From an uncultured Candidatus Saccharibacteria bacterium (GTDB lineage Bacteria > Patescibacteriota > Minisyncoccia > Phycocordibacterales > UBA9973), in contig CAZADR010000001.1 of assembly GCA_964484005.1 (NCBI GenBank), forward strand, positions 43,927 through 107,926: a stretch of 64,000 nt of DNA, in the 5' to 3' direction. Position 1 is the first letter of the stretch, and every line of letters starts with the position of its first letter. The notes under the pieces were generated by a model, which ran no database searches, was not told the DNA's origin, and saw nothing but the letters and a program-made list of their open reading frames with translations. The translations under genes were made by a program, and so were the position numbers. Positions 21,258 to 39,627 of the stretch are shown here, piece by piece.

Positions 21258-21295
21258 AAAATCCCCCACTTTTGGTAGGGGATTTTCGTTTTTTA
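21258..21295 (+). terminator. Rho-independent terminator
   Basis: aatccccc-acttttggta-ggggatt followed by ttcgtttttt. Confidence 0.5.
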
Positions 21296-21297
21296 CA

Positions 21298-21709
21298 GGT
21301 ATCTATAAGCCGAATTTTGTATTTAATGCCAAAGCATTATAGATAGCAATTTATCTAGGCCTGAAATTGCTCTCAGGCTCAAGCGATTCTCCCCCACACC
21401 TTTCGGAATGATGCGCATTTGCGCGTTGCTTTTAGCAACTTCATTCTGAAAGGTGTGGGGGCACGATCTTGCACAGAGGTAAGGGTTTAGCCGTTTCACC
21501 CTTCGACTTCGCTCAGGGCAAGCCCTAAGTTTATATGAAGATTTATCCATTTCTGGATACCCTAACCCTTTCGAGTTAAGACGTCTCTGCTCGCACCTAT
21601 GTATCACTACATACGGGGGTTACCCGCTACCATTCCCATCTCTTTCGAGACTCGCTGTGTTCGGACTTTCCTCTATATAGCTTGCGCCATATAGTAGCTA
21701 TCCGATACC
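21298..21709 (-). ncRNA. rnpB: RNase P RNA, bacterial type A, with an extended perfect hairpin insertion
   Basis: The minus strand carries AGGAAAGTCCGAAC (P4 5' strand), AGCGGGTAACCCCCG, AAGGGTGAAACGGC, GCTTGAG and GCAATTTCAGGCCTAGATAAATTGC (the CCUAGAUGAAUG region), and ACAAAATTCGGCTTA (P4 3' strand). A P1 pairing ggtatc/gatacc joins the ends. Confidence 0.8.
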
Positions 21710-21816
21710 TGCAAGGGTATTATACAACGCTTGCTTTATTTATTCAAGTATGATATACTATGTTTGTGAGTGTGAGGTTGTTCTCACATTTTTAAATAGA
21801 CAACATAAGTGCCGCA

Positions 21817-25022: not shown

Positions 25023-25096
25023 TCCGGGGTAGCTCAGCGGTAGAGCGGTCGCCTGTTAAGCGATTGGTCGTAGGTTCGATCCCTACCCCCGGAGCA
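25023..25096 (+). tRNA. tRNA-Asn (anticodon GUU); serves as an integration site
   Basis: TCCGGGGTAGCTCAGCGGTAGAGCGGTCGCCTGTTAAGCGAT...GTAGGTTCGATCCCTACCCCCGGAGCA. The last 14 nt overlap the 3' end of the serine recombinase ORF on the opposite strand. Confidence 0.9.
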
Positions 25097-26642
25097 ATGT
25101 TTTGTATTTAGTGCTATTTTCACTTTTTACCTTACTGGTATTAGGTTTTTTGAGTTCGAATTTATTTTGAGCGTCAATTCTCTCTTGAATCCTCTTTGAA
25201 ATCTTTTTTACTGAACTCTTTAAAACAGTATCAGCTTTCTTGTCTTTCAAGATTAGGTTCGCGAAAATGTGAGATAAGAGCAACCGGCGTTCTTCTGGGC
25301 TTCTCTTTTCGTATATTTCTCTGGCCCGGCGTGCGAGATCCAAGATGTTTATATACAACTCAAAATATTTTGTTTCCTCGTTCTTCAACTTGGTTATTTG
25401 ATTTTGGATTTCAGCTTGCTCGGTGTTTATCTCTTTCTGCTTCGCTTCCCACCTTTCTTGGGTTATTTTTTCGGACAATCTGTCATTGTAGAGTATATCC
25501 AGTTGCCTCTGTAAAGCGTTATAGCGAAGATCTAGGGCTTTAAGAGTATTTTCCTTGTATTCGGATTCTAGCTTATGATCTGCCTTAATTTTGTCCCTTA
25601 TGAGGTCTGCCTCTTTTTCAGTTATATTCTCAAAGAAACGGAATGCTCCTATCAAGGAAACATCCAGATCAGTTTCTTTAGTCATTCCTTTTTGGGAACA
25701 GGGCCGGTTGTGTTTGCAAGAATAATAAACAATTCCTTTTTGTATCTCACCACTTATTGAACCTCCACATTCTCCACACTCAATCATTTTACTGAACTGA
25801 AAGGTATGTCTTTTGTAATGCGGTGATTTACCTCGTGTAAGTGTAAATTGCACCTTATCAAAAAGCTCCTTCGATACCAACGGTTCGTGCTTTCCGTTAT
25901 GCACAAAATCGTTCCATCTTAATAATCCCATATAAAATGGGTCGCGTAGTATATCTTCCAATCTACTCTTTGAGAGCTTACTACCATTTCTAGTTCTTAA
26001 TCCATCCTCATATAATTTTTCCCGCAAACCAGTTAGAGAGTAATTTCTGGTTGCGTAATACTCAAATGCTTTCTTGATAAAGCGACTTTTATCTTCATCT
26101 ATGATATGAATTTTGTGTCCCTTTTCACCGATCGTTTTATATCCTATTGGAGGTTTTGCCGGTAGCCATCCCTGTGCAATTTTTTCTTTCTGACCCTTTT
26201 TAACTTCTTCCGAAAGATTAGAAATATACTTCTTCGCAAGGACTATTTCAATATCCCAACGAAACTTCTCGTCTGATTTGGCGTATCTGTGTATTACTAG
26301 ATTTTGTTTCACGAAATGTATCTGGTGTTTTTCGTCTGCCTCTATCCAATCATTCGCAGTTATTGCGTCCACAAAATTTCTTGTAAGACGATCCACCTTT
26401 TCACAAAGTAAAATAGGAACATCTTTCTTTTTTAGATATTCCATCATTTCCCCGAATATCTTTCTTTGCTTTGCGCCACTAGCAGATTCTGCCGGAGCGA
26501 ATGACCTAACTACCTCAAAACCTTTCCTGTTTGCATATTCTACAAGCAACTTCTCTTGGGAGGGCAAAGAATAACCAGTTTCTTCTTGTTCCTTTGAGGA
26601 TACTCTGCAATAAATTACGCATTTGATTCTAGTTAGATTCAT
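25083..26642 (-). CDS. Large serine recombinase (integrase), copy 1; C-terminus encoded within the tRNA-Asn 3' end
   Basis: VIYCRVSSKEQEETGYSLPSQ catalytic Ser region. DRLTRN. C-terminal zinc-ribbon and coiled-coil typical of large serine recombinases. The stop codon TAG lies at 25083-25085 inside the tRNA. Confidence 0.85.
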   Translation of the reverse strand: MNLTRIKCVIYCRVSSKEQEETGYSLPSQEKLLVEYANRKGFEVVRSFAPAESASGAKQRKIFGEMMEYLKKKDVPILLCEKVDRLTRNFVDAITANDWIEADEKHQIHFVKQNLVIHRYAKSDEKFRWDIEIVLAKKYISNLSEEVKKGQKEKIAQGWLPAKPPIGYKTIGEKGHKIHIIDEDKSRFIKKAFEYYATRNYSLTGLREKLYEDGLRTRNGSKLSKSRLEDILRDPFYMGLLRWNDFVHNGKHEPLVSKELFDKVQFTLTRGKSPHYKRHTFQFSKMIECGECGGSISGEIQKGIVYYSCKHNRPCSQKGMTKETDLDVSLIGAFRFFENITEKEADLIRDKIKADHKLESEYKENTLKALDLRYNALQRQLDILYNDRLSEKITQERWEAKQKEINTEQAEIQNQITKLKNEETKYFELYINILDLARRAREIYEKRSPEERRLLLSHIFANLILKDKKADTVLKSSVKKISKRIQERIDAQNKFELKKPNTSKVKSENSTKYKTLLRG

Positions 26643-26687
26643 ACATTTTTATTATACAATTAAAGTTGATAATCTCAAAAATAGTTT

Positions 26688-27245
26688 TTAACCACCAGCT
26701 AAAAATGTCATTTTATCTCTTATTTCTTTTTTTCTTTTATTTATCTCTTCTTGCTCTTCCAAATTGCTTCCAAAGCATATATCTCTGTTTGTTTTCTCTG
26801 GGGTATTCTCTGTATAGATAGTTTGCTTAAATTTACTAGCCAGTTTGCAGGATTCAGCAAACTGGTTTGCGGACACTGGCATATTTATAAAAGATTTTAG
26901 TATAGCGACAAGTTTATTTTTGTTTATGTGGAAGTACCTCTTTCTAGGAATACCACGAAGTTCTACTTCAAGCACATCGAGTTTCTTCCAAATTTTTATC
27001 GCCTTTTCTTGTTGGCTTCTAGTTAAACAGCTTTCTTGGTAAATTTCCCTTATTGTTTTATAAGTCCAATCTGGGTCTGAACCTTTGTTATCCCAATAGA
27101 GTAACTGTGATAGAAAAAGCCCAGCAGTTGCACTTTTAGCTAATCTGCCGAGTATTGGATTAAATGCGATAGGTTTTGCACCCAATATTTCAATAATAAG
27201 AGAGTTGTAGTTTGTATTAGCCCTGCCTTGATTTTTGTTTTTCAT
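26688..27245 (-). CDS. Winged-HTH protein resembling the replication-initiator RepA_N / DnaD-like N-terminal domain
   Basis: ATAGLFLSQLLYWDNKG...WTYKTIREIYQESCLTRSQQEKAIKIWKKLDVLEV resembles the RepA_N pattern. Low-confidence family call. Confidence 0.4.
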   Translation of the reverse strand: MKNKNQGRANTNYNSLIIEILGAKPIAFNPILGRLAKSATAGLFLSQLLYWDNKGSDPDWTYKTIREIYQESCLTRSQQEKAIKIWKKLDVLEVELRGIPRKRYFHINKNKLVAILKSFINMPVSANQFAESCKLASKFKQTIYTENTPEKTNRDICFGSNLEEQEEINKRKKEIRDKMTFLAGG

Positions 27246-27262
27246 ATCAGCTCTTTTATTTT

Positions 27263-27451
27263 TTAATGATCAGAACCTAAAACTGACCCACTAGGAGCTG
27301 ATACTAATGGGTCTGTTTTAAGCACCGATTTTTCTTTTTGTTTATCCTCGTAATCAAAACGTGCGAGCAAATCAAAAAAGGAAGACAGCTCGTCCAGCTC
27401 TTCTTTGTCTAAATGTTCTATTGAGGTGAGATTGTTATCTTCGCTATACAC
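27263..27451 (-). CDS. Small acidic hypothetical protein (62 aa)
   Basis: ORF only. Confidence 0.2.
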   Translation of the reverse strand: MYSEDNNLTSIEHLDKEELDELSSFFDLLARFDYEDKQKEKSVLKTDPLVSAPSGSVLGSDH

Positions 27452-27623
27452 TTGGGTCTTTTTTTGACCCCGTTTGTTTATTGCGACAAATAAAAAACGG
27501 ATTGTCCCGTAGCAGAATCCGTAGCAAGAGGTTTTGGATCTCTATCTCAAGAGATCGCCAATGTATTGAGTTACTCAGATTATAGCACTTCTTATAATAC
27601 CGGCAAATATGTTATCCACACTA

Positions 27624-30041
27624 TTATTTATCGTTATCTTTCTTCTTCTTTTCAGCTTTAGGTTTTTTAGATTTTTCGCGAGCTATTTTTTCTTCCATTT
27701 CCTTGCCAAATTTACTATCCACAATAAAAGAACCCCACACTTCAAAAATAAATTTATCTATATCATATTGTTCAACAACTTGATACATCATTGCTTCTGC
27801 ATCATCGCGGATGCTCAATGATCCGTTAATACTTTCTCTTTCGTAATCATCGCGCCACCTCCATAATTCTCGTTTTAATTGATCCTTATGAGGTAATCCC
27901 AAAACATTGTGGTCTTCAGGATCAACTCCGGCAGGCAAATTAGTAAGGTGTTTTGCAAAATACTTTGCTTCAAATTCTGTGATTTTTATTTTCAGATCAG
28001 CAAATATATCCATCCATCCCTTTTTTAGAGCAATAATGCCTAAATAACAGGCCTTTTCTAAAACTCTTGGTTCGTTGTATCCATATCCTCTTGTAGTTTT
28101 TTGCAAAGTATCTTTTGTTATTGAATAAAGACAATTTATACAATCTTGAACGAGCGCTTTGTCTTCCAATTTTTCTGCTACAATTATGCCTGTTTTTGCA
28201 ACACTATCTGTAAGGGTGTTGAAAGGATTTGAGCCACCATCAAACTTCTCGGCGTGGCTTACAAAAAAACTTGGCAGGTGGATGTTCCAAGCTAGACGGC
28301 TTTTTAATTCAGTCACATCTTTTTTAAAATCATCATCTTGTATTAGATCAACTATAAGATTATTTATATTGAACAGAAGACGACCTATACTATCAGTAAG
28401 AGTTGTGTCACAGCTTTTTACTGTTTCCGATAAAATCCGCAAACTCATATTTAATTCACGAAAGAACTCTATTAGATTTCTTTTATACCTATCCTTTTCT
28501 CTTGTATCTGTAATTTTAGAATAATGTTCCATTATTACCGCAAGGGTGGTGTAAAACTCATCATAACCCTTACTTAAACTGAAACGAGTTTGTATATCGT
28601 CAGGAAGCAAACCAGCTTTAATAAAATTATTGATGTGATTTGCGATGGTAGCAATGTTTTTTAAAGCGCCCTTGATATGTATCTGTCTATCAATATCAGG
28701 ACTAGTAAATACTGCGCTAATGATACGAAGAAATGTCGTGGAACAGAGATCCACAATAATGGTTTGTTTTTGAGATAGACCATAAATGGCTACACTCATT
28801 ATTTTATCTAGTAGTCCGTGAAGTGTTAAAGAAAGTCCTTTCTGTGAAGCTATAACTGCGATATCACGAAGCACTTGCAAACCTTTATAAACGACCTCTA
28901 TATTTTTTGCTCGTTGTCCGCTTTCAATGTAAAAGTTTAAATTTCCCAGTATTAGATCTAATATGGGGTTTTCGTTTCTCTGGCTTATGAAAGTGATTTC
29001 TTGTGCCTTGCCTGCCAATCCGCGATAAATATCAATTATATAGGTAGCAAGTTCGTCCTTGCCATCTTTGATAAACTTTTCTCCCGCCTTATTTAATCTT
29101 TCAAGATTTTTATTAACGAAAGTTTGGCTATCACTTTCTACTGCAAGAAATACTGTGCCAGATGGTAGTATGAGGGATGAGGTTTTTCGTGCTTCAAAAA
29201 ATCTAATCAGTATTCTATAAACTGCTGTGAACCCTCGCTTGGTAGTGCCTACCTCTTGCTTGTCGCTTAATTTTAATGAAATCTCTACAAGATTTTCTAT
29301 TTGCCTATCAAGGTTTATCATAAACGGCTGTAAAAATTGATTATATGCTTGGGCAAGTCCCATATCGTTAGTGATAGAGGGATTTCTGGTGTGAAGCAAA
29401 TCAGCTAACCGTTCTGCATCGGATTGCAATTTATTTAAAAATCTCACTCCCTCTTTTTCTAAAAAAGAAATTGCTTCTGACGGGTTTAGTTTTTGCCGGA
29501 CATTTTTATATTGCCAATCTATCAAAGCAAAAACGGCTCCAACTAATACAAGAGATAACAATACTATTCCCGAACTGATGTTATGTAAAATTGTTGTTAA
29601 ACTTCCAACATAAAGCCCACCGCCTAAAAATAAGAGTGTGATAATTATCACTACAAAATAAACAAACTTTTCTTTCCAGTCGTGTATAAAAACCTCAAAA
29701 TACTGGGATGAGTAAAGCTCTGCCGCACTCTGAATAAGGAAAATTGAAATAGTGAATACTATCGCAATAGTGCCTCCGGTCATTGCTCCGAGAGCGACTA
29801 GATAATTGCTTAAAATATCTTGCGTAAAGTTTAGTCCGCCAAAATAATTTACTATTAAGCCAATACCAAGACCGATTACTAAAAAAGATAGTCGTCTCAT
29901 CCAGCCAAAATGTTTTCCCAGAGATGATAAAAATCTTTTCCATCTTCCCAGATATAACCACATTGTCAGCTTGTAGCTATATTTTAGGTATTGAAGCCAT
30001 CCCTGTTTCCACTCTTTTATTTCTGCTAATAAAAGTTTCAT
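27624..30041 (-). CDS. 805-aa polytopic membrane protein of unknown function with a large helical cytoplasmic domain and a K-rich C-terminal tail (element cargo)
   Basis: About 5 N-terminal transmembrane helices, a long alpha-helical region and a KSKKPKAEKKKKDNDK tail. No recognised catalytic motif. Confidence 0.6.
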   Translation of the reverse strand: MKLLLAEIKEWKQGWLQYLKYSYKLTMWLYLGRWKRFLSSLGKHFGWMRRLSFLVIGLGIGLIVNYFGGLNFTQDILSNYLVALGAMTGGTIAIVFTISIFLIQSAAELYSSQYFEVFIHDWKEKFVYFVVIIITLLFLGGGLYVGSLTTILHNISSGIVLLSLVLVGAVFALIDWQYKNVRQKLNPSEAISFLEKEGVRFLNKLQSDAERLADLLHTRNPSITNDMGLAQAYNQFLQPFMINLDRQIENLVEISLKLSDKQEVGTTKRGFTAVYRILIRFFEARKTSSLILPSGTVFLAVESDSQTFVNKNLERLNKAGEKFIKDGKDELATYIIDIYRGLAGKAQEITFISQRNENPILDLILGNLNFYIESGQRAKNIEVVYKGLQVLRDIAVIASQKGLSLTLHGLLDKIMSVAIYGLSQKQTIIVDLCSTTFLRIISAVFTSPDIDRQIHIKGALKNIATIANHINNFIKAGLLPDDIQTRFSLSKGYDEFYTTLAVIMEHYSKITDTREKDRYKRNLIEFFRELNMSLRILSETVKSCDTTLTDSIGRLLFNINNLIVDLIQDDDFKKDVTELKSRLAWNIHLPSFFVSHAEKFDGGSNPFNTLTDSVAKTGIIVAEKLEDKALVQDCINCLYSITKDTLQKTTRGYGYNEPRVLEKACYLGIIALKKGWMDIFADLKIKITEFEAKYFAKHLTNLPAGVDPEDHNVLGLPHKDQLKRELWRWRDDYERESINGSLSIRDDAEAMMYQVVEQYDIDKFIFEVWGSFIVDSKFGKEMEEKIAREKSKKPKAEKKKKDNDK

Positions 30042-30201
30042 AATAAGCTGTATCTTAACATTTTGGGCTTAAAAAATATACTGAAATTGGGTTTCTGGCA
30101 AAATCTCAAAAAATTGCAATAAGACAAGAGTAATTATATAATTATTGGATAACTTAATAAGAAAGACCTAAACCCTGTGGATGGCCTTAAAACTATAGGA
30201 T

Positions 30202-30316
30202 ATGGTCGCAAAGTCGGATCACGCATAAAGAACCCATCGCAGGGTTGCGTGATCCGCCATATCGGGAAACCGGTATGAGAGGTTTCGGCCTCTACCTGTG
30301 GTGGGCTTTTTGTTTT
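30202..30316 (+). ncRNA. Candidate structured RNA element A (unknown family), ending in a U-tract 12 nt before the ATG at 30328
   Basis: Nested hairpins ggatcacgc/gcgtgatcc and aaccc/gggtt, a GAAA-tetraloop hairpin cgg-gaaa-ccg, and agagg/cctct, followed by gggctttttgtttt. It is homologous to element B at 37884-37999, with compensatory substitutions in each stem. Confidence 0.35.
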
Positions 30317-30327
30317 AGTAAAATTAT

Positions 30328-31344
30328 ATGAAAAAATTCTGGCAAATATCGAAAATAGCAATAGCAAGTATAGCAATATTTTCATTTCTCGTTCTTGTAT
30401 TTTTAGTTATTATTGTTTGGGATGATACTGACACAGAAACATCACAAAATGCGGATTTTTTAGCTAAACAACAAGAAGCACTTAATAAAGCAATAGATGA
30501 GATCGAAACAAAATCAAATCTAGAAACAGATGAATTAAAGAAAGAGATTGAAAATTTAAAAAGTAAAACCACCAAACAAACTCAAAACCAACAACAAGCT
30601 AATAATAACATTGCTGAATTAAAGAATGAGTTAAAATCCACTGATGCTTTAGTTAATGAAAATTATGACGAACAATCTGATGTTGTCTTAGATTCCATTG
30701 CTAAAGTTGCTTGTTTTTTAACTAAAAATAAGACCATTTTTGGTTCGGGTTCAGTATGGGGCGTAGGTGATGATTATTATTTAGTTACCAATAAACACGT
30801 TTTAGAAGAAGCAGATAGAGAAGATGAAAGTTGCGCTATATCGATTGCTAGAGATTGGAATGCAGTGGCTAATGATGTTGAAAAGGCCTATCAAGATGAT
30901 AACTTACTTATATATAGTTTAGACCTGAATTATACCTATTGGGAGATAGATGGGTTTGATTTTGCAATCACTAAAATAATTGAAGATAAGCAACCACTCT
31001 CTTTTCTCGATGATATTGCGATGGAAACAAATGAGACTGAGTGTAATGAGAATTTAGGGGTTGGAGAAAAAATAAAAATTATAGGATTTCCTTATACTAG
31101 TTCTGTTGCTCTACCCACTATTACAGAAGGAATTATTTCAAGTTTTGAGTATATTGGTGATAGTAGTTACTATATAACATCTGCAAAAATTGAACACGGA
31201 AATTCTGGCGGAATGGCGGTAACTAATAACTATCATTGTCTGATAGGTATACCCTCTGCTGTTGTTGTCGGTGATTCAGAGAGTTTAGGAAGGATTCTTG
31301 TTTTAACAGAGAAAGATTTAAAAACTCTTTTTGATCAGATTTAG
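30328..31344 (+). CDS. Membrane-anchored trypsin-like (S1 family) serine protease with an N-terminal transmembrane helix and coiled-coil
   Basis: LVTNKHV (His), a conserved Asp, and the GNSGG (HGNSGGMAV) Ser motif. Confidence 0.65.
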   Translation: MKKFWQISKIAIASIAIFSFLVLVFLVIIVWDDTDTETSQNADFLAKQQEALNKAIDEIETKSNLETDELKKEIENLKSKTTKQTQNQQQANNNIAELKNELKSTDALVNENYDEQSDVVLDSIAKVACFLTKNKTIFGSGSVWGVGDDYYLVTNKHVLEEADREDESCAISIARDWNAVANDVEKAYQDDNLLIYSLDLNYTYWEIDGFDFAITKIIEDKQPLSFLDDIAMETNETECNENLGVGEKIKIIGFPYTSSVALPTITEGIISSFEYIGDSSYYITSAKIEHGNSGGMAVTNNYHCLIGIPSAVVVGDSESLGRILVLTEKDLKTLFDQI

Positions 31345-31354
31345 TAGATAATTT

Positions 31355-31849
31355 ATGGAAAAAGAAAAACCTAGATCATTTAGATTAAGTCGAGAAACAA
31401 TGTTTGATAATACCATTTATGGAGATATGTCTAAAAAAGATTGGTGGAAGTTTAAAAAGGTAAGTTACAAAGTAAATTATAGAAATCTTGCTTTATTATT
31501 TATCTTTTTCTTATTTCTAATACCAACGTTATTCCCTGTTGGTAGCATTGCTCTCATTATTTGGATTATTTTATGGATAAAACATAAACTATCTCAACCA
31601 AGAGAGGTTGTTATTGCTTCAAAAACGCTTACTCCGGAAGATATTAAAAAATTTCTTGGAAATGGAGCAGATAACCTAACCAACGAAGAAGCCCAAAAAC
31701 TTTTTATGGAATTACCTGTAGAAAAACAAATGGAAGCTGTTTTTAGCAATTCTCCAAAGGAGTTAAAAAGAGAAAGAAACGTAAAAATAATTGTGAGCAT
31801 TATTGTTCTAGTTGGCCTAGCGGTATTGCCTTTTTTATTACTAAATTAA
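31355..31849 (+). CDS. Hypothetical membrane protein
   Basis: ORF with transmembrane helices. Confidence 0.4.
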   Translation: MEKEKPRSFRLSRETMFDNTIYGDMSKKDWWKFKKVSYKVNYRNLALLFIFFLFLIPTLFPVGSIALIIWIILWIKHKLSQPREVVIASKTLTPEDIKKFLGNGADNLTNEEAQKLFMELPVEKQMEAVFSNSPKELKRERNVKIIVSIIVLVGLAVLPFLLLN

Positions 31850-31894
31850 GCAGATAATAATTTATGAAAAAATTAAAAGTTAATAAAAAACAAA

Positions 31895-32188
31895 ATGAAT
31901 AATAGCTGGGGTGTTGGACTTCTGATTGGTGGAATTATTGGAATATCTATAGGCGCAACTTTTGGGCCTTCTAAAAAAGACTATGAACGAGCAAAAGGGC
32001 AATGTTATATCGTCCGAGATGATTATAGTTCTGCTCTTGAAGATGCCACTTCAAGTATTGAGGAAGCAAATAGCCAAATAGCTGATGGGCAAGGTTATGC
32101 TTGGTCTTCTTATAATGAAATGGGAGAGGCTTTAGAGAATTTATACGAAGTTGATGATGCTGACAATCCCGGAACTACTTGTTATTAG
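31895..32188 (+). CDS. Hypothetical small protein with an N-terminal transmembrane helix
   Basis: ORF only. Confidence 0.35.
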   Translation: MNNSWGVGLLIGGIIGISIGATFGPSKKDYERAKGQCYIVRDDYSSALEDATSSIEEANSQIADGQGYAWSSYNEMGEALENLYEVDDADNPGTTCY

Positions 32189-32357
32189 AAATTAGCTAAT
32201 GCAATGAAATACTACTTTAAAAAATTTCTATACTTTACCATAATGATCGCATTTTTCTATATGACTTTTTATATTCTCGGTGGATGGGCGTTATTTTTTT
32301 GGGTGCCTTTTATATTTTATCAATTAGAGTAATTAAGTATCTAGTTCTAAAAATTAT

Positions 32358-32711
32358 ATGGAAAACAATGATAAAAAAATGTGGGGTCTTGAATCAGATA
32401 CATATGATAAATTGGCAAGTAGTCATTCTAGGGCAAATATATTTTTATGGATTGTTGGGGGCTTAATATACAATTTTTTTAATGGCGATTTAATAAGTTT
32501 GTCATCTGTCTTAGTTGTTTTCCCCGGCATATTTATTGCTTCTTTTGCTTCAATTCCAACCTTCTGGGTTAATGTTAAAAAAATGCAGATACTCCAAAAA
32601 ACAAATAATATACTAGTGCTAATAGGATTCACTATTTGGTATGCGGTTGATCTTATTTTTCCAATTCTAATGAGTATTCTATTTATCAAGTTTATTAGTT
32701 TGTTTAATTAA
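32358..32711 (+). CDS. Hypothetical membrane protein
   Basis: ORF with multiple transmembrane segments. Confidence 0.35.
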   Translation: MENNDKKMWGLESDTYDKLASSHSRANIFLWIVGGLIYNFFNGDLISLSSVLVVFPGIFIASFASIPTFWVNVKKMQILQKTNNILVLIGFTIWYAVDLIFPILMSILFIKFISLFN

Positions 32712-33101
32712 ATTTTATAGAAGATTATATGGAAAAATTAAAACAATACAAATATATAATTTTAATAGTATTGCTAACTTTTGGGTTTGTTTTTTATTGG
32801 TATGAATGGAGACCACACGGAATATAACAAATCACGCAAGAAGAAGTAATTATTATTTAATGTTATAATATAACTATGAAAAACAAAACCCCAACAACAC
32901 GAGAATTAGTAGATAATACATATATTGATTCTGCGTTGCGTGGACTTAAACGTCTTTTAGATGACGACTTTAGGGATGGTAAAATTAGTGAAACTGAATA
33001 TAAAAAACGATCAGATAAATTTACAGAAGCTATAAACGCCCCAGAATAACCCTAGAAATAGGTTTTTTTGATGGGCTAGAATCTGTTGGAATTAAATATA
33101 A

Positions 33102-33653
33102 TTACTTCACCCATTTCTTCCCAGTTAATTTTTCCAGAAGCATCTCTCTCAACTGTTGATCAGAATATCCAGCAAACTTATTAATATGATGTTTGTCCGG
33201 AGAGTATAGACCCTTTAACTTATAAGCCATATCTAGTCCATCTATTATCGCCCTATTATTATCGACAGAATAGAAAGCTATTTTACCTTTTGCTGATTCT
33301 TGTATTACAACGACTTTTAATCTAGCATCCTCTAAACATTCTTTTATTTCTTTGTCTTTCATTTTTTTAGGAAAGCTAAAGTGTTTTATTTCTTTTGCTT
33401 CTAAAAGTTCTAAATGTTTATTCACTAAAAACTCATCATCTATAAAAGATTTCATTAAAACATCCCAGCTTTTAGTTTGTCTTAACTGTTGAGGATTGTC
33501 TGCATAGTTTTGAGAATATCCGGCTTCTTTAATTGAAGCTCCCAATGTCTTACCTTTTCCAAGATTTTCCAAGATTTTTCTATGTCGCTCTAATGGCTTT
33601 TTTTCTCTATTTACTTTTTTATTCATCACTTCTTTATTAAAATTACTTACCAA
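33102..33653 (-). CDS. HTH protein resembling a phage terminase small subunit (Terminase_2-like)
   Basis: ILENLGKGKTLGASIKEAGYSQNYADNPQQL resembles the ...AGYS...A... HTH of small terminase subunits. It sits immediately downstream of recombinase 2. Confidence 0.4.
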   Translation of the reverse strand: MVSNFNKEVMNKKVNREKKPLERHRKILENLGKGKTLGASIKEAGYSQNYADNPQQLRQTKSWDVLMKSFIDDEFLVNKHLELLEAKEIKHFSFPKKMKDKEIKECLEDARLKVVVIQESAKGKIAFYSVDNNRAIIDGLDMAYKLKGLYSPDKHHINKFAGYSDQQLREMLLEKLTGKKWVK

Positions 33654-33680
33654 ACTTTATTAAAATGATTCTCTGATAGT

Positions 33681-35345
33681 TTAATACGCTAAAAGTGACT
33701 TTATTTCAGCCAATGCTATACTAGGAAAAGGATATTCTTCGAGCCAATTTATAGTTCGAAAGTCGTCCACAATACCGAGCAATGTTTTGTATTTATAGTC
33801 AAAATCAGACTTTTGTATTGGAGATACAAGGCTTTTTTGTAGTTCGTAGACTTCATTTAGCTTAGGAATCCATTCAAGCAGATATTTGCATGCTAAATTG
33901 TAATTTGGCTTTATTTCATTTACGTTTTGTGCGAAGTTCGTAAATAATTGAGCAAACAATAACCTCTTTTCATCTGTAAGTGCTTGCTCGTAAATTTCTT
34001 TAGCCTTGAAAGCTAATTCGTGGATTATTAAACGCAACTCTTGGTAATCATCGCTTTGGCTAACAACTTTTTCAAGCGTAGATTCAAGGGCATCTTCTTC
34101 AGTTTTACATTCAGCAATCTTTCTTTCGCAATATTCAAGTGGTACTTCTTTGTTTATTGTTGCCTCAAAATATTTATCTTTCTGTTTTCTTATGCTTGTG
34201 AGTAGCCCATTCAGTCTTTGAATTTCAGTTTCCCTTAACTTCACATTCTCAGCATTTTCTTCCAAGATAATTCCTTCAATCCATTTTAGTACCGCTTCAT
34301 TCTTAGGGGCTATTTTAAAGAATACGGGGTCTACCTGCTTTTCTACTTCTTCCTCCTTGATATAGGTCTTTTTGGTGCAATGACGAGATTTTAAGTGGTT
34401 ATTACAATGTCCATAAAGAATACCTTTTTGTGTTTCCCAGCTCAATACTCCGCCACAACCATCACAAAAGATTTTTCCTTGAAATAAATAATTGTGCTTG
34501 GTGGTAATAACATTTTTACCTCTTCTTTTAAGAACACTTTGTGCTTTCTCAAATAAGTCTTTGGTAATTAAAGGCTTGTGTTTTGCTGGGTATATTTCAC
34601 CTTTCCATTTCATTTTGCCATAGTAGAATGGGTCTTGAAGTAATTCATAGATTCTACTTTGTAAAACTTTATTTCCATTTGTTGAACGAAGCCCCGTTTT
34701 ATACATTTCATCCTCAAGACTTTGTATAGAATAGTTTCCCGTAGCATATAGCTCAAACATTTTTCTAATATGCGGAGCAACCCCATCATCAATCACATGT
34801 ATTTTGTGTCCTTTGTCCCCAATAGTTTTATATCCAGTTGGTGGTTTGGTTGGCAACCATCCTTGTGCTATTTTTTCTTTCTGCCCCTTTTTCACTTCTT
34901 CGGAAAGGTTAGCTATATATTTCTTTGCAAGAACAATCTCAATATCCCAACGAAATTTTTCGTCCGATTTGGCATACTTGTGTATTACAAGGTTCTGCTT
35001 AACAAAGTGAAGCTGTCTTTCTTCATTAGCCTCAATCCAATCATTTGCTACGACTGCTTCCTTGAGGTTTCTGGTGAGTCGGTCAACTTTTTCACACAAA
35101 AGAATTTGAATATTATTTTTTCCCATATAGCCCATCATTTCAGCAAAGATTTTTCTTTGTTTTGTTCCACTTGCAGATTCTGCAACAGAAAAAGGTTTTG
35201 CCACTTCAAAACCTTTTCTATTTGCATATTCAATTAGTAATTTTTCTTGCGAGGGAAGCGAGTACCCCGTATCCTCTTGTTCTTTTGATGATACACGGCA
35301 ATAAATAACGGCTTTATTCTTTGTGTTTTTTATTTGAGTTTTCAT
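33681..35345 (-). CDS. Large serine recombinase (integrase), copy 2, full length
   Basis: VIYCRVSSKEQEDTGYSLPSQ...DRLTRN, roughly 60-70% identical to copy 1 over the catalytic domain. An internal site at 33777-33795 repeats the copy-1/tRNA junction sequence. Confidence 0.85.
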   Translation of the reverse strand: MKTQIKNTKNKAVIYCRVSSKEQEDTGYSLPSQEKLLIEYANRKGFEVAKPFSVAESASGTKQRKIFAEMMGYMGKNNIQILLCEKVDRLTRNLKEAVVANDWIEANEERQLHFVKQNLVIHKYAKSDEKFRWDIEIVLAKKYIANLSEEVKKGQKEKIAQGWLPTKPPTGYKTIGDKGHKIHVIDDGVAPHIRKMFELYATGNYSIQSLEDEMYKTGLRSTNGNKVLQSRIYELLQDPFYYGKMKWKGEIYPAKHKPLITKDLFEKAQSVLKRRGKNVITTKHNYLFQGKIFCDGCGGVLSWETQKGILYGHCNNHLKSRHCTKKTYIKEEEVEKQVDPVFFKIAPKNEAVLKWIEGIILEENAENVKLRETEIQRLNGLLTSIRKQKDKYFEATINKEVPLEYCERKIAECKTEEDALESTLEKVVSQSDDYQELRLIIHELAFKAKEIYEQALTDEKRLLFAQLFTNFAQNVNEIKPNYNLACKYLLEWIPKLNEVYELQKSLVSPIQKSDFDYKYKTLLGIVDDFRTINWLEEYPFPSIALAEIKSLLAY

Positions 35346-35521
35346 TTAGTTAGATTCTTGCCTACAAAGTTTTTAAAGGTTTTCTTGTCTATTCTGTATT
35401 CCTTGCCAAATTTATATGCTTTAAGTTTCCTTGCCCTTATATATCGGTAAATAGTTATTATATTTAGCTTCAGTATTTCCGCTAATTCTTCGGCTGTATA
35501 GAATTGCTCTTTTTTTCTCAT
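35342..35521 (-). CDS. Excisionase-family HTH protein (59 aa) overlapping the start of recombinase 2 by 4 nt (ATGA); not in the supplied ORF track
   Basis: Minus-strand translation MRKKEQFYTAEELAEILKLNIITIYRYIRARKLKAYKFGKEYRIDKKTFKNFVGKNLTK shows the Xis/MerR-like HTH_17 pattern (TxxEAAExLGVSxxTIYRxIxxGKLPAxRxGRxxRI). Confidence 0.5.
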   Translation of the reverse strand: MRKKEQFYTAEELAEILKLNIITIYRYIRARKLKAYKFGKEYRIDKKTFKNFVGKNLTK

Positions 35522-35580
35522 GTTCCAATTTTATCATACTGGACTTTTCTATACAACCAAAGTTATCCACATTTACCTTA

Positions 35581-35763
35581 TCACGCAGGCAAAGTATTTT
35601 TCTCCTCCTTCTTAAGGCGTTGATAGATACCAAACAGAGTTAAATAATAATTAGCCACTCCATTGGCAATTTCAGCCACTTCCTGTTCAGAATAATTCTC
35701 AAAATCAACATGGTCTTTGTGAATCTCCTTGAATTTATTTATTTGTTCCTGTCGCAGTTCCAT
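35581..35763 (-). CDS. Small hypothetical protein (60 aa)
   Basis: ORF only. Confidence 0.25.
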   Translation of the reverse strand: MELRQEQINKFKEIHKDHVDFENYSEQEVAEIANGVANYYLTLFGIYQRLKKEEKNTLPA

Positions 35764-35961
35764 GTTTAGTTTCTAATTTACTTTTGACGCCCCATTGGGG
35801 GAAACTGACCAGATAGTTTTATCTTTACATCACCACATAATATTATTTGGCTGAACAAGGGGATATATTCTCTGTCCAGAATATAAAATCTTTACAGGTT
35901 CATCTGTCCGAAGGATAGATGAATAATATCAATTATTATATGTGTATATTATTTGTGTATA

Positions 35962-36207
35962 CTATCTGGTATTGGTTGGCTGTTCTTCACTTAACGAGTT
36001 AATGGTTTCAACAAAGTCTTTGTCATTCTCTACAACGCTGAAAGCTTTTTCAGTAACGGTGTACCATTTTGTTTTGTCATATCCGTGTTTATTGAACCTT
36101 CCAGTGTCTATGTATGATTTCTTTTTGAGATTGTCTAAAATTCGTCTAATTGTTGCTATTGTCCAAAAAGAATATTGCTCTTTAAACTTAAGTACAGAAT
36201 TAAACAT
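35962..36207 (-). CDS. Small winged-HTH-like hypothetical protein (possibly RepA_N/DnaD-like)
   Basis: SFWTIATIRRILDNLKKKSYIDTGRFNKHGYDKTKWYTV. Weak resemblance only. Confidence 0.3.
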   Translation of the reverse strand: MFNSVLKFKEQYSFWTIATIRRILDNLKKKSYIDTGRFNKHGYDKTKWYTVTEKAFSVVENDKDFVETINSLSEEQPTNTR

Positions 36208-36478
36208 CCAATATTTACCTTGATAATAGTGATATTCACTCTTTTTTCTTTTGTTGAGATTAACCTAAAAATATATGTTGCTGAACATAATGGCTTCCTC
36301 AACGCCAACATCTTTTGCCACACTTTCACTAAAATAATATTTTTTTATATCATTGTTTTCCATATGTAATTAATGCTTTATGATGTAAACTATGCTTTTC
36401 TTTTTTCGTTTCTACATACACATCATTTAAGCTCATTTTTATTGCTTATAATAAAGAGGAGCTTCAAAAACAGGTACG

Positions 36479-36694
36479 CTACAACATGTCTTTTGTTAGG
36501 TCGTACAAATATTTTAATATTTGCCCCTTTTCGTCTTTTGCATACTCTTCCTTATCAACTAATTTGTTAAAATATCTTCTAATTCTATCTCTACTGAACT
36601 TTTTTCCACGTACTGTGTTGGCAAAACAAGTAAATGACGACCAGAAAGGGTTTTTCCTCTGAATATATTCAAATCTTCTTTTTATACTTCTCAT
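36479..36694 (-). CDS. Small basic hypothetical protein
   Basis: ORF only. Confidence 0.25.
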   Translation of the reverse strand: MRSIKRRFEYIQRKNPFWSSFTCFANTVRGKKFSRDRIRRYFNKLVDKEEYAKDEKGQILKYLYDLTKDML

Positions 36695-36843
36695 TATTTT
36701 ATTAGTTATTAATATTTCTCTTAACTAGACTGGGAAATCAGTCCAAGCAGTAGTTTTTGTTACGACATAATAAAATCACCACTTCTATGATTATAGAAAG
36801 TGGTATATATACAATTTACAATATTGTAAAAATAGGATGTGGA

Positions 36844-37578
36844 TTAATGCACATTAAACCTCCAACTTGAGCTTTTATAACTTCCATCAAGTTCTTCTCT
36901 CATAAAAACTTTATCAGAGTAAAGAGGCTTTTTTAGTTCTTTGTTTAAATCGGATATATATTGACGAAGCGTTTTCTCTCTTTGCTTTGATTGCATTCCT
37001 AATATATCGTAAATCTCTTCCTCTCCCACTGTTTCGTATTCTGCTTCAATGAAAATTTTACATAATTTCTTTAATCTTTTTGGTAAGGTAATGATTTCAT
37101 CATGAATTCTTATCGTATCATCATTATAAAGCTCCAAATCCCCAACACTTTTTTCCCTCATAGGTATTCGTAAAGATAAATCAATGCCACTCTTATATAA
37201 GATTTCATCTGTCTGTTTTAATGTTAAAACACTTTTAAAAGACTGTTTGTATTTTCTTAATTTCTTTAAATTTACATTTATATAGGTAATAACAAAATCA
37301 TCAGTTTCAATACGGCTTCCGTCTTCATTATATATTGACCCCTTAGAATAATCGGACATGGCTGGAATAGGTGTTCTTGAAGTCATTTTTAAGATTTTTT
37401 GTTCTTCTAAATTCAATAAAAATGAAATGCATTCTGAACTCGGTAATTTGAATTCCCAAGTCATTAATTCATAGCCCCCTCTAGGATTATTTTTTCTACT
37501 TTCTTTTGGATAAAGAAGAACTTGCTCCTCAATAAAAGATAAAATTCTTAAACACTCTACGAATTTCTTCTGCTCCAT
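36844..37578 (-). CDS. Hypothetical protein (244 aa), element cargo
   Basis: ORF only. No motif recognised. Confidence 0.4.
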   Translation of the reverse strand: MEQKKFVECLRILSFIEEQVLLYPKESRKNNPRGGYELMTWEFKLPSSECISFLLNLEEQKILKMTSRTPIPAMSDYSKGSIYNEDGSRIETDDFVITYINVNLKKLRKYKQSFKSVLTLKQTDEILYKSGIDLSLRIPMREKSVGDLELYNDDTIRIHDEIITLPKRLKKLCKIFIEAEYETVGEEEIYDILGMQSKQREKTLRQYISDLNKELKKPLYSDKVFMREELDGSYKSSSWRFNVH

Positions 37579-37883
37579 TTCTAGATTGTATTACAAAAAG
37601 TTCTAAAATCCCACCATTTTTCAGATGAGTATATTCGGTGTATCCTCTTTCATTTGGGTGTCCTCCCCCCGTACCCCTTATCAAATAAGAATATTACTAA
37701 TAGTAAATATTAAAATATAGATGTCGTAATGTAAGCTGTATTTGCTTATAGAAAGGCTATAACAACCTCTTTAATGGTCTATAAACACGCTATAAACCCT
37801 TATTGATGGTAAATTTATAGAAAGGTGCTATTATTGTTTTATAACTTAATATAAGAGTAGCCTAAACTTTTGTAGACAAAAGC

Positions 37884-37999
37884 ATGGTGAACGAAGTCAG
37901 GTAATGCATAAAAAACCCTTCATGGGGTCGCATTACCTGCCGTACAGGGAAACTTGTATGAGAGACTTAGGTCTCTACCCGTGAGGGGCTTTTTGTTTG
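37884..37999 (+). ncRNA. Candidate structured RNA element B, homolog of element A
   Basis: Same architecture as A with covarying stems: aggtaatgc/gcattacct, cagg-gaaa-cttg, agagac/gtctct, then gggctttttgtttg. Confidence 0.35.
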
Positions 38000-38040
38000 C
38001 CAATTACGGAAATTATTAATGATAAACAAAATACAAATAT

Positions 38041-38232
38041 ATGGAAAAGGAAACTTTTGGTCAATTCTTGGGTCGTAACTGGTGGCTGTTGCTTATTAGT
38101 TTTATTCACATGCTGAGGAATGGTGAAGATTTTACAGGAGGCGAGAAATTATTACTTTTTATCATTACTGGTGGAATAATAATATTTCTAATGTTTCTTT
38201 ATTGGTCTTATCAAAATAAGAAAAATAATTAA
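38041..38232 (+). CDS. Small membrane protein
   Basis: ORF with 2 transmembrane helices. Confidence 0.3.
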   Translation: MEKETFGQFLGRNWWLLLISFIHMLRNGEDFTGGEKLLLFIITGGIIIFLMFLYWSYQNKKNN

Positions 38233-38237
38233 TAATT

Positions 38238-38666
38238 ATGAAAAGAACACAAAGTATATTTTTAATTTTAATTGGAGTTGCTGTTTTAATTTTTACAATC
38301 TTTTATATCTCAAAAGAAGATACGAAAGATTTATTGGCAAAACAAGAGAGTTGCGTTAAGGCTTACGAAAAAATGAGTGCTGAAGCTCCAAAATCAAGTT
38401 TAGACAACGAAGGAATGATGACTGTTTCAAACCATGCCTTGTATAGTCAAACACAAAAAAGCTGTGTTGAAACTTTATATGTAAGCACTCTTTCTTTTAA
38501 AGACAAAAAACCTGAAGCAAAAGGTTATTTTTCAATAAAAGATATTTATACGGGAGAAGTTTATTTCGTTAAATTATTTACAAATGATACTGAAAGTAAA
38601 GATGTGGAAGCTTGGTATAAGTCAAAACTGAACGAATTAAAAACGTTTGGTAGTGATGAAAAATAA
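38238..38666 (+). CDS. Small secreted / lipoprotein-like hypothetical protein
   Basis: Signal peptide. ORF only. Confidence 0.4.
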   Translation: MKRTQSIFLILIGVAVLIFTIFYISKEDTKDLLAKQESCVKAYEKMSAEAPKSSLDNEGMMTVSNHALYSQTQKSCVETLYVSTLSFKDKKPEAKGYFSIKDIYTGEVYFVKLFTNDTESKDVEAWYKSKLNELKTFGSDEK

Positions 38667-39626: not shown

Positions 39627-39627
39627 T

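What the first reader, a model, noticed from the sequence alone, without database searches (positions are those of the whole stretch)
27624..30041. 805-aa polytopic membrane protein of unknown function as the main cargo of element 1
It is the largest cargo gene of the tRNA-Asn element. It has about five N-terminal transmembrane helices, a roughly 600-residue all-helical soluble region with no recognisable catalytic motif, and a KSKKPKAEKKKKDNDK tail. Large membrane proteins carried next to integrases are often abortive-infection, superinfection-exclusion or conjugation-related. This one matches nothing I can recognise.
Basis: inference. Interest (0 to 1): 0.5.

Follow-up and report, generated by a model that had tools for sequence, protein, structure and literature searches.

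The report
Mobile-element membrane protein, function unknown
The 805-residue gene is real. It belongs to an undescribed but widespread family of membrane-anchored helical-repeat proteins that travel as cargo on integrating mobile elements, prophages and restriction-modification loci, mostly in ultra-small (CPR) bacteria, which makes it a reasonable but untested candidate for a new anti-phage or exclusion gene.

Summary
ORF 27624-30041 (-) encodes an 805-aa protein with four, not five, N-terminal hydrophobic helices. It also has a cytoplasmic, almost all-helical region of about 630 residues, which AlphaFold2 (pLDDT 84.6) models as an alpha-solenoid, and a Lys-rich tail that the family does not conserve.

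The gene lies inside a delimited 8.7-kb serine-recombinase element at tRNA-Asn, the first of two tandem elements, and is its largest cargo gene.

Across 49 non-redundant loci there is no fixed partner gene. Recurrent neighbours are:
- serine recombinases (15 loci);
- tyrosine recombinases (9 loci);
- type I restriction-modification operons (6 loci, abutting the hsdR stop codon in two);
- a tRNA immediately upstream (6 loci);
- in one locus, the slot right after the endolysin gene of a tailed prophage.

My best reading, at 0.45 confidence, is a single-gene conflict module: the solenoid senses and the conserved four-helix membrane domain executes. This is inferred from context, not shown. Interest is moderate.

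The parts
27624..30041 (-). Gene for the 805-aa membrane-anchored alpha-solenoid protein (family member P0001)
   Evidence: ORF list and translation. An identical protein is found in public assemblies. There are 352 homologous 50%-identity clusters. AF2 model pLDDT 84.6, pTM 0.75.
29517..29891 (-). Four-helix membrane module (residues about 51-175), DUF2254-like. By the positive-inside rule both ends face the cytoplasm and the external loops are 10 residues or fewer.
   Evidence: Hydropathy peaks and helices in the AF2 model. Distant family members match Pfam PF10011 profile positions 9-168 of 368: P0260 scores 37.1 bits against a cut-off of 28.8, and 10 of 55 distant members match at E<=0.01. 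A profile of this module retrieves a protein annotated PF10011.
29727..29804 (-). Second transmembrane helix (TM2), residues 80-105, carrying the motif GAMxGGxIAIVF[ST]xSxFxxQ. This is the best-conserved stretch of the whole family.
   Evidence: Column conservation on the 86-sequence alignment A2. M87, G89, G90, I94 and S99 are invariant among 45 closer homologues.
27717..29516 (-). Cytoplasmic alpha-solenoid (residues about 176-775), near-neutral (pI 6.3)
28962..29189 (-). Conserved polar cluster around the only beta-hairpin: R285, S288, S289, S303-D304-S305-Q306, E314, N358-P359. It is a candidate ligand- or partner-binding site.
   Evidence: R285, D304, N358 and P359 are at least 90% conserved across the 86 divergent members. 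Information content. The hairpin at 289-303 is in the AF2 model.
27627..27680 (-). Lys-rich C-terminal tail (residues 788-805), specific to this lineage
   Evidence: Translation. The tail is not conserved in the family.
30073..30101 (-). Promoter-like site (TTGCCA-17-TATTTT) about 30 nt upstream of the start codon
   Evidence: Consensus scan only. Promoter-like sites are not enriched over shuffles, so this is weak.
27497..27510 (-). Terminator-like hairpin plus T-run about 115 nt after the stop codon, suggesting a monocistronic unit
   Evidence: Consensus scan: 7 terminator-like sites found against 1.9 expected in shuffles.
25023..25095 (+). tRNA-Asn(GTT), the integration target. Its 3' end is overlapped by the last codons of the recombinase gene.
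   Evidence: ARAGORN and Rfam and the sequence itself.
25092..33781 (.). Element 1 (8,685 bp between GAGCA cores at 25092-25096 and 33777-33781). It carries the serine recombinase SR1, a RepO/DnaD-like protein, a 62-aa ORF, the 805-aa gene, a LOOT RNA, a protease, small membrane proteins and a 183-aa ORF.
   Evidence: A 19-nt sequence is shared between 25092-25110 and 33777-33795. SR1 and SR2 are 49% identical up to exactly this point. An orphan tail lies at 43396-43494 and a third GAGCA core at 43486-43490.
25083..26642 (-). Large serine recombinase SR1 (519 aa) of element 1. Its ORF ends 'KYKTLLRG*' inside the tRNA.
   Evidence: Pfam Resolvase, Recombinase and Zn_ribbon_recom; sequence.
26688..27245 (-). 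185-aa replication-initiation O-like / DnaD-like protein of element 1
   Evidence: PHROG 9773, E 1.7e-22.
30165..30293 (+). LOOT RNA (RF03000) copy 1. It is divergent from the 805-aa gene and ends in a terminator-like hairpin just before the protease gene.
   Evidence: Rfam 74.3 bits against a gathering score of 46.4. My own covariance model R1 gives 103 bits. Terminator-like site at 30291-30305.

Best explanation
The gene encodes one member of an undescribed, horizontally mobile, single-gene family. Each member has a DUF2254-type four-helix membrane module followed by a cytoplasmic alpha-solenoid of about 600 residues. In this window it is the main cargo of an 8.7-kb serine-recombinase element integrated at the 3' end of tRNA-Asn.

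I think it most likely acts in conflict between the host or its element and incoming phages or other mobile DNA. The cytoplasmic solenoid, with its conserved polar pocket (R285, S303-D304-S305, N358-P359), would bind an invader-derived component or an invader-perturbed host component at the inner face of the membrane. The highly conserved membrane module (TM2, GAMxGGxIAIVFS) would then execute the response. That response could be membrane permeabilisation, as in abortive infection, or a block to DNA entry or egress at the membrane, as in exclusion.

Shown here:
- the gene is real and conserved;
- the predicted topology and fold;
- its location inside a delimited element;
- its repeated association with recombinases, restriction-modification genes, nucleases and a prophage accessory slot.

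Inferred: the defence or exclusion role and the division of labour between sensor and effector.
For: Mobility and accessory status:
- 49 non-redundant loci show no conserved synteny and no universal partner gene.
- A large serine recombinase lies within 10 kb in 15 of 49 loci, and a tyrosine recombinase lies nearby (within 10 kb; directly downstream and convergent in seven) in 9 of 49.
- In the window and in L007, L021, L031 and L035 the gene sits between a recombinase gene abutting a tRNA or group I intron and an orphan recombinase tail. These are delimited elements of about 9-15 kb.
- In 6 loci a tRNA lies 73-225 bp upstream.
- Hosts are mostly CPR MAGs, but also MAGs labelled Nitrospirota, Vicinamibacterales, Elusimicrobiota, Gammaproteobacteria and Atribacterota.

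Conflict context:
- Type I restriction-modification operons lie next to the gene in 6 loci. In L035 and L037 the gene start abuts or overlaps the hsdR stop.
- In a census of 143 nearest neighbours, the top Pfam families are Phage_integrase, N6_Mtase, ResIII, Eco57I, N6_N4_Mtase, Methylase_S, SNase, C5 methylase, MTES_1575 and PLDc_2.
- PADLOC on the same set finds restriction-modification types I, II, IIG and III, mad2, SNc+LTD and DrmMI.
- L033 is a tailed prophage in which the homologue follows the endolysin gene directly.

Architecture:
- The topology is N-in, C-in with tiny external loops, so the protein looks inward.
- TM2 is the best-conserved segment, so the membrane part is more than an anchor.
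- No housekeeping transporter or sensor homology was found.
Against: - There is no experimental evidence and no homology to any known defence protein. PADLOC gave 0 hits at E<=0.1 and PHROGs gave 0.
- There is no recognisable enzymatic effector domain.
- The whole protein, solenoid included, is unusually well conserved (44-72% identity among CPR members). That suits binding to a conserved cellular partner better than an arms-race sensor.
- Several loci show only housekeeping neighbours apart from a tRNA.
- There are no homologues in sequenced phage genomes or plasmids.
- The neighbour enrichment was not tested against a genome-wide background.
Confidence: 0.45

Rival explanations
1. An element-benefit function that is not immunity. 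The protein would be a membrane-tethered scaffold that helps the element or prophage itself. Examples are anchoring replication or segregation of the excised circle at the membrane, modulating DNA uptake or transfer, or remodelling the host-symbiont interface of an episymbiotic CPR cell.
For: - The gene travels with elements that carry their own RepO/DnaD-like initiator.
- High sequence conservation of the solenoid fits a conserved cellular partner.
- L006 has a coupling-protein-like gene and a Toprim gene nearby.
- The solenoid is near-neutral, like a protein-protein scaffold.
Against: - The gene occurs in very different vehicles: serine-recombinase elements, tyrosine-recombinase loci, a tailed prophage, restriction-modification operons, and alone next to tRNAs. 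It is therefore not a core gene of any one life cycle.
- Element 2 in the same window lacks it.
- There are no plasmid hits.
Confidence: 0.2
2. An ordinary, non-essential membrane or stress protein of the DUF2254 superfamily. It would merely sit in variable regions, and the mobile-element neighbours would be coincidental hitch-hiking.
For: - The membrane module is DUF2254-like, and DUF2254 proteins have no reported function.
- Some loci have only housekeeping neighbours.
- Strong purifying selection acts along the whole length.
Against: - The distribution is patchy: 20 loci in a pattern-limited scan of one genome for each of 185,579 species.
- Proteins reach 63-70% identity between MAGs assigned to different lineages.
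- There is no synteny.
- The gene is repeatedly enclosed within delimited integrative elements.
- The DUF2254 C-terminal half (profile positions 170-368) is absent.
Confidence: 0.15
3. A membrane-associated enzyme acting as a lysogenic-conversion factor. The conserved polar cluster (R285, S288/S289, S303-D304-S305-Q306, E314, N358) would be an active site that modifies a lipid, an envelope precursor or a nucleotide. This would change the cell surface or physiology to the element's advantage.
For: - Nearly invariant polar residues cluster around the single beta-hairpin in an otherwise repeat-like protein.
- The prophage slot after the lysis genes is a typical place for conversion genes.
Against: - The fold searches return only non-enzymatic helical repeats.
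- No catalytic family matches by sequence.
- The external loops are too short to act outside the cell.
Confidence: 0.1

Closest known systems
DUF2254 (Pfam PF10011), predicted membrane proteins of unknown function
   Same: The N-terminal four-helix membrane module is homologous. Family member P0260 scores 37.1 bits on profile positions 9-168, 10 of 55 distant members match, and a profile of the module retrieves a protein annotated PF10011.
   Different: The window protein itself does not reach the Pfam threshold. Only the membrane half of the 368-position profile is matched. The DUF2254 C-terminal domain is replaced by an alpha-solenoid of about 600 residues. DUF2254 itself has no known function: the literature search found 4 papers, none of them functional.
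Single-gene or membrane-effector abortive-infection and exclusion proteins (for example lambda RexB, Kiwa KwaA, 4TM effectors of CBASS/Pycsar, prophage Sie proteins). This comparison is from general knowledge.
   Same: It shares a multi-helix inner-membrane module, carriage on prophages, integrative elements and defence islands, and the lack of an enzymatic domain. The working model of a membrane effector controlled from the cytoplasm is the same.
   Different: There is no sequence match to any PADLOC 2.0 model. The protein is far larger than typical Sie or Rex proteins. The sensor part would be a covalently attached alpha-solenoid rather than a separate protein or a nucleotide signal. No phenotype is known.
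ZorA of Zorya (MotA/ExbB-like membrane protein with a long helical cytoplasmic tail). This comparison is from general knowledge.
   Same: The gross layout is similar: N-terminal transmembrane helices followed by a long, purely helical cytoplasmic part, in defence-island contexts.
   Different: No ZorA model matches the 805-aa protein. There is no ZorB/MotB-like partner and no ZorC or ZorD next to it. The cytoplasmic part is modelled as a compact solenoid, not a long coiled-coil tail.
HEAT/ARM alpha-solenoid scaffolds (importin-beta, PP2A A subunit, beta-catenin, Sec7 DCB-HUS, eIF3a)

Membership tests
DUF2254 (PF10011) | Match to the Pfam HMM at or above the gathering score (28.8 bits) | tested here: not met
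   The window protein has no PF10011 hit at E<=0.1. A distant family member, P0260, reaches 37.1 bits, and 10 of 55 distant members match at E<=0.01.
DUF2254 (PF10011) | Homology of the N-terminal four-helix membrane module (profile positions about 9-168) | tested here: met
   Transitive evidence only: P0260, P0142 and P0047 align on profile positions 9-168, 14-217 and 18-168. The family's TM-module profile A6 retrieves P0271, annotated PF10011, at E 2.3e-12.
DUF2254 (PF10011) | Presence of the DUF2254 C-terminal soluble domain (profile positions about 170-368) | tested here: not met
   No member aligns beyond profile position 217. The region is an alpha-solenoid in the AF2 model.
Known anti-phage defence families (PADLOC-DB 2.0) | Match to any of the 5027 defence-protein HMMs | tested here: not met
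   0 families at E<=0.1.
Known anti-phage defence families (working criterion: defence-island or mobile-element neighbourhood) | Recurrent location next to known defence genes and mobile-element genes | tested here: inconclusive
   Restriction-modification genes, nucleases and recombinases dominate the 143 nearest neighbours. No genome-wide background was available to turn this into a statistic.
Known anti-phage defence families | Protection phenotype on phage challenge | not testable with these tools
   This needs heterologous expression and a phage panel.
Zorya ZorA / MotA-ExbB-like stators | Match to a ZorA/MotA model and an adjacent MotB/ZorB-like partner | tested here: not met
   No ZorA hit for the 805-aa protein. 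No conserved partner gene in 49 loci.
Cargo of a large-serine-recombinase integrative element | The gene lies between attL and attR of an element that has a Resolvase+Recombinase+Zn-ribbon recombinase | tested here: met
   SR1 domains. GAGCA cores at 25092, 33777 and 43486, plus an orphan recombinase tail at 43396-43494. The same layout is seen in L007, L021, L031 and L035.
Cargo of a large-serine-recombinase integrative element | An empty site (attB) or excised circle observed in other samples | tested here: not met
   The predicted attB, CCCTACCCCCGGAGCAGAGAGAAAAT, was not found in the JGI metagenome contigs. The samples that carry this genome are not in that collection, so this is uninformative rather than contrary.

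The most novel reading that the evidence does not exclude
The family is a new single-gene, membrane-acting immunity or exclusion system that is characteristic of the mobile elements of CPR/Patescibacteria and sporadically transferred to other phyla. The DUF2254-type four-helix module would be the effector and the fused alpha-solenoid the sensor. If so, this would give the DUF2254 superfamily its first function and add a defence mechanism to a radiation of bacteria whose immune repertoire, as far as I know, is thought to be small and dominated by restriction-modification.
Probability: 0.3. Interest if true: 0.65.

Novelty: new variant of a known kind. Interest (0 to 1): 0.4.

Why it matters
From general knowledge, CPR/Patescibacteria make up a large share of bacterial diversity. 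Most are uncultivated, and their mobile elements and immune systems are poorly charted.

This work turns a lone hypothetical protein into a defined family. It now has a domain layout, conserved residues to mutate, delimited carrier elements and a recurring link to restriction-modification loci. That makes a defence or exclusion hypothesis directly testable in a heterologous host.

If the hypothesis is confirmed, it would also give the first functional handle on the DUF2254 membrane module. If it is not, the finding remains an ordinary unknown cargo gene.

The by-products may be as useful as the protein itself:
- a family of serine-recombinase elements whose attP lies inside the recombinase reading frame;
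- the orphan LOOT RNA as a component of those elements.

Tried and rejected
- Foldseek against AFDB50 was not available on the machine. This would have been the best chance of a fold-level relative.
- The PDB sequence profile gave nothing.
- Phage (INPHARED) and plasmid (PLSDB) tblastn searches found no match.
- The broad alignment A2 was too diverse for the locus finder, so I used A1 instead.
- A2 was too large for a family scan, so I used the 55 distant members instead.
- The N-terminal-module profile search of the 5.8-billion-protein set returned only fragments plus one DUF2254 protein. The hoped-for survey of other domains fused to this membrane module failed.
- I looked for a displaced tRNA 3' fragment to mark the far end of the element and found none. 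The orphan recombinase tail solved the problem instead.
- The predicted empty site was not found in metagenomes.
- The adjacent trypsin-like protease was rejected as a partner. It recurs only in L007, and not adjacent there.
- The ORF directly downstream was rejected as a conserved partner. A small 2-3-TM protein follows the gene in only 6 of 49 loci, and these fall into unrelated clusters.
- A nucleic-acid-binding solenoid was rejected, because the region is near-neutral (median pI 6.3).
- Literature searches for DUF2254, LOOT and CPR serine-recombinase elements gave no functional information.
Full report
1. THE OBSERVATION

The ORF 27624..30041 on the - strand starts with ATG and encodes 805 aa. 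It is single-copy in the window. It is a real gene:
- an identical protein is found on 8 contigs from several samples;
- more than 120 full-length homologues of 42-72% identity exist in the 90%-clustered database;
- an exhaustive HMMER search of 1.84 billion 50%-identity representatives finds 352 clusters at E<=1e-3 and 126 at E<=1e-30, nearly all 750-850 aa and aligned end to end.

A promoter-like site lies about 30 nt upstream of the ATG. A terminator-like hairpin lies about 115 nt after the stop. Both are consensus matches only.

2. ANATOMY

Hydropathy and an AlphaFold2 model built on 45 homologues (mean pLDDT 84.6, pTM 0.75) give the following layout:
- a basic amphipathic helix at residues 1-43;
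- four hydrophobic helices, at about 51-68, 80-105, 124-146 and 153-175;
- an almost purely helical region from 176 to about 775, with one beta-hairpin at 289-303.

Basic residues flank the N-terminus, the loop at 106-123 and the segment after TM4. The other two loops hold no Lys or Arg and are 10 residues or fewer. By the positive-inside rule, both ends and the whole soluble part face the cytoplasm. This topology is my inference from the sequence.

On an 86-sequence alignment that reaches down to 19% identity, the best-conserved stretch of the entire protein is TM2 (GAMxGGxIAIVF[ST]xSxFxxQ). Next come residues 660-675 (EPRxxxKACYxGIxALK), 300-315 (SDSQxFLxxxLERL) and 355-365 (ENPI). R285, D304, N358, P359, R535, P187 and F764 are at least 90% conserved.

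The soluble region is near-neutral (median pI 6.3 across the family), so nothing suggests generic nucleic-acid binding.

3. HOMOLOGY SEARCHES

Pfam, NCBIfam, PADLOC and PHROGs give no significant match for the window protein. A family profile finds nothing in PDB sequences.

The fold searches behave as follows:
- Foldseek against the PDB returns only designed repeat proteins, transportins and beta-catenin, with TM-scores at most 0.28.
- BFVD returns nothing at E<=1e-3.
- AFDB50 could not be searched.

The soluble part is therefore a generic HEAT/ARM-like alpha-solenoid without an identifiable relative.

The membrane part does have a relative. Distant family member P0260 matches Pfam DUF2254 (PF10011) at 37.1 bits against a cut-off of 28.8, on profile positions 9-168 of 368. 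Ten of 55 distant members match at E<=0.01. Two closer members match weakly on the same positions. A profile of the family's membrane module retrieves a protein annotated PF10011. DUF2254 has no known function. The family is thus a DUF2254-type membrane module fused to a new solenoid in place of the DUF2254 C-terminal domain.

4. THE ELEMENT IN THE WINDOW

tRNA-Asn lies at 25023-25095 (+). A large serine recombinase, SR1 (25083-26642, -; Resolvase, Recombinase and Zn-ribbon domains), ends 'KYKTLLRG*' with its last codons inside the tRNA 3' end.

A second recombinase, SR2 (33681-35345, -), is 49% identical to SR1 up to exactly that point. The two share the 19-mer GAGCAATGTTTTGTATTTA (25092-25110 and 33777-33795). 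SR2 then continues for about 35 further codons.

An orphan homologue of that 35-codon tail lies on the - strand at 43396-43494 (tblastn E 3e-6), with no recombinase gene in front of it. It ends at a third GAGCA, at 43486-43490, just upstream of a host VIT1 gene.

The simplest reading is two elements integrated in tandem at the same tRNA, with attP lying inside the 3' end of the recombinase reading frame:
- Element 1 runs from 25092 to 33781 (8,685 bp). It carries SR1, a RepO/DnaD-like protein (PHROG 9773, E 1.7e-22), a 62-aa ORF, the 805-aa gene, a LOOT RNA, a membrane-anchored trypsin-like protease, three small membrane proteins and a 183-aa protein.
- Element 2 runs from 33777 to 43490 (9,709 bp).

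A single 18.4-kb element with two recombinases cannot be excluded. Either way the gene is inside, and it is the largest cargo gene. The predicted empty site was not found in the JGI metagenomes. That is uninformative, because the source samples are not in that collection.

5. RELATED LOCI

I collected loci from the look-up of encoding contigs, the GTDB representative genomes, IMG/VR and the JGI metagenomes. They reduce to 55 non-redundant loci, and the gene was called in 49 of them, counting the window's own region.

Hosts are mostly Parcubacteria-type CPR MAGs: Buchananbacteria, Paceibacterota, Uhrbacteria, Magasanikbacteria, Minisyncoccales, Roizmanbacteria and bins labelled 'Saccharibacteria'. 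There are also MAGs labelled Nitrospirota, Vicinamibacterales, Elusimicrobiota, Gammaproteobacteria and Atribacterota.

Clustering all neighbours shows no universal partner gene. The recurrent neighbours are:
- large serine recombinases in 15 loci (13 full-length, 2 fragments);
- tyrosine recombinases (about 300 aa in eight loci, 467 aa in L065) in 9 loci, directly downstream and convergent in seven of them, with a DUF488 protein in five;
- type I restriction-modification operons in 6 loci, with the gene start abutting or overlapping the hsdR stop in L035 and L037.

About 21 of 49 loci have a recombinase within 10 kb, although many contigs are short. In six further cases a tRNA gene lies 73-225 bp upstream on the same strand: Trp, Glu, Asn, Ala, Ser and one odd tRNA.

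Orphan recombinase tails lie downstream of the gene in L007, L021, L031 and L035, with partial evidence in L050 and L073. Each is paired with a recombinase gene that abuts a tRNA-Asn or a group I intron. The gene is thus enclosed in delimited elements of about 9-15 kb in at least four more genomes.

One IMG/VR contig, L033, is a tailed prophage with a minor tail protein, tape measure, baseplate hub, tail fibres and an amidase/endolysin. The homologue follows the endolysin gene directly, which is the usual slot for prophage accessory genes.

I took a census of the two nearest genes on each side, 143 proteins from 47 loci. It is led by Phage_integrase, N6_Mtase, ResIII, Eco57I, N6_N4_Mtase, Methylase_S, SNase, C5 methylase, MTES_1575, DUF2726, PLDc_2 and DUF559. 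PADLOC on the same set finds restriction-modification types I, II, IIG and III, mad2, SNc+LTD and DrmMI. No background distribution was available, so this enrichment is qualitative.

6. INTERPRETATION

The following is shown:
- the family is conserved and horizontally mobile, and behaves as a solitary gene;
- its topology is inward-facing;
- its membrane helix TM2 is more conserved than anything else in the protein;
- it has a conserved polar cluster in the solenoid;
- it repeatedly travels on integrative elements, on a prophage and in restriction-modification operons.

From this I infer, at about 0.45 confidence, a role in conflict with incoming phages or other mobile DNA. The solenoid would be the recognition part and the DUF2254-type module the executing part, acting by membrane permeabilisation or by a block at the membrane.

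Several points weigh against this:
- there is no match to known defence families;
- there is no enzymatic domain;
- there is no phenotype;
- some neighbourhoods are housekeeping only;
- the sequence conservation is unusually high for a supposed arms-race sensor.

The rivals, with my confidence in each, are:
- an element-benefit scaffold unrelated to immunity (0.2);
- an ordinary DUF2254-superfamily membrane protein that merely sits in variable regions (0.15);
- a membrane-associated conversion enzyme that uses the polar cluster (0.1).

Only one locus has a coupling-protein-like gene, and there are no plasmid hits.

7. COMPARISON WITH KNOWN SYSTEMS AND NOVELTY

The protein is not a member of any characterised family. 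It shares only the membrane half with DUF2254. It resembles HEAT/ARM scaffolds in fold class only. In layout it resembles membrane-effector abortive-infection or exclusion proteins, and ZorA, but it fails every sequence test for them.

I file it as a new variant of a known kind: mobile-element-borne membrane proteins that are candidates for immunity or exclusion. Interest is moderate (0.4). An unknown cargo gene is not surprising in itself. However, the family is large, cleanly defined, linked to restriction-modification operons, and now testable.

8. SIDE OBSERVATIONS

These are listed separately in the report:
- The orphan, metagenome-only LOOT RNA (RF03000, described as metagenomic in PMC7779021) occurs twice in the window, once per element. 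It also occurs in eight of the other 48 loci.
- The recombinase reading frame is split by integration.

Noticed in passing
window 30165-30293 (+) and 37859-37976 (+); also L017:12162-12278, L021:14731-14854, L035:15421-15541, L039:8703-8823, L049:4941-5071, L059:5944-6065, L064:8582-8700, L070:13795-13915: Two copies of the LOOT RNA (RF03000) lie in the window, one in each tandem element. The Rfam 14 paper describes this motif as metagenome-based. Each copy ends in a terminator-like hairpin just before a run of small secreted or membrane-protein genes. LOOT also lies within 10 kb of the 805-aa homologue in 8 other loci. It therefore looks like a component of these CPR integrative elements, which would give the orphan motif a genomic home.
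   Followed up: partly
window 25083-25110, 33681-33795, 43396-43494; L007:16219-16311, L021:15963-16055, L031:15672-15767, L035:16371-16463, L050:12972-13064, L073:11591-11686: The attachment site of these large serine recombinases lies inside the 3' end of their own reading frame. Integration at a tRNA replaces the last 35 or so codons. SR1 now ends 'RG*' inside tRNA-Asn, and an orphan tail-coding fragment is left at the far end of the element. The orphan tail is a handy marker for element borders. From general knowledge, this recalls the split integrase gene of SSV-type archaeal viruses.
   Followed up: partly
window 33777-43490: A second, tandem serine-recombinase element of 9.7 kb. It carries SR2, a RepO/DnaD-like fragment (35962-36207), a 244-aa protein, LOOT copy 2, about seven small secreted or membrane proteins, and an overlapping pair of unknown genes of 519 and 280 aa (40943-42502 and 42495-43337). 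The pair has no Pfam match and may be a two-gene cargo system.
   Followed up: partly
window 30328-31344 (+): A 338-aa protein with an N-terminal membrane helix, a coiled coil and a trypsin-like protease domain lies directly downstream of LOOT copy 1. Its protease domain matches the protease part of PADLOC RT-Protease_XI models (E 2.6e-12). A related protease occurs in the L007 element, but not next to the 805-aa homologue.
   Followed up: partly
L007:1975-2219, L031:6725-6950, L035:921-1168: Group I introns (RF00028) lie immediately next to the 3' end of the serine-recombinase genes, where other loci have a tRNA. The integration target there is probably an intron-containing tRNA gene that ARAGORN does not call.
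   Followed up: no
L017:13493-15103 and 15039-15432: In this Parcubacteria MAG the serine-recombinase gene overlaps the 3' end of the tmRNA gene. The same element family apparently also uses tmRNA as an integration site.
   Followed up: no
L010:12316-12864, L037:10123-10620, L053:12421-12918, L032:8628-9107, L034:12399-12923, L035:12456-12905: In 6 of 49 loci a small protein (149-182 aa) with 2-3 predicted transmembrane helices follows the 805-aa homologue directly on the same strand. These proteins fall into at least three clusters with no detectable mutual similarity and are absent from the window. They may be an optional partner.
   Followed up: partly
L073:10001-11303: The homologue in this groundwater contig appears to be interrupted after about 160 codons. 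The next ORF (MKRLGRSPKNK...HIVFVPKRRRK...) looks like an IS200/IS605-type transposase, so this copy may be a pseudogene. This was not verified with a family search.
   Followed up: no
window 21290-21713 (-): A bacterial RNase P class A RNA (116.8 bits). The 94-aa ORF at 21323-21607 on the same strand lies inside it and is therefore spurious.
   Followed up: no
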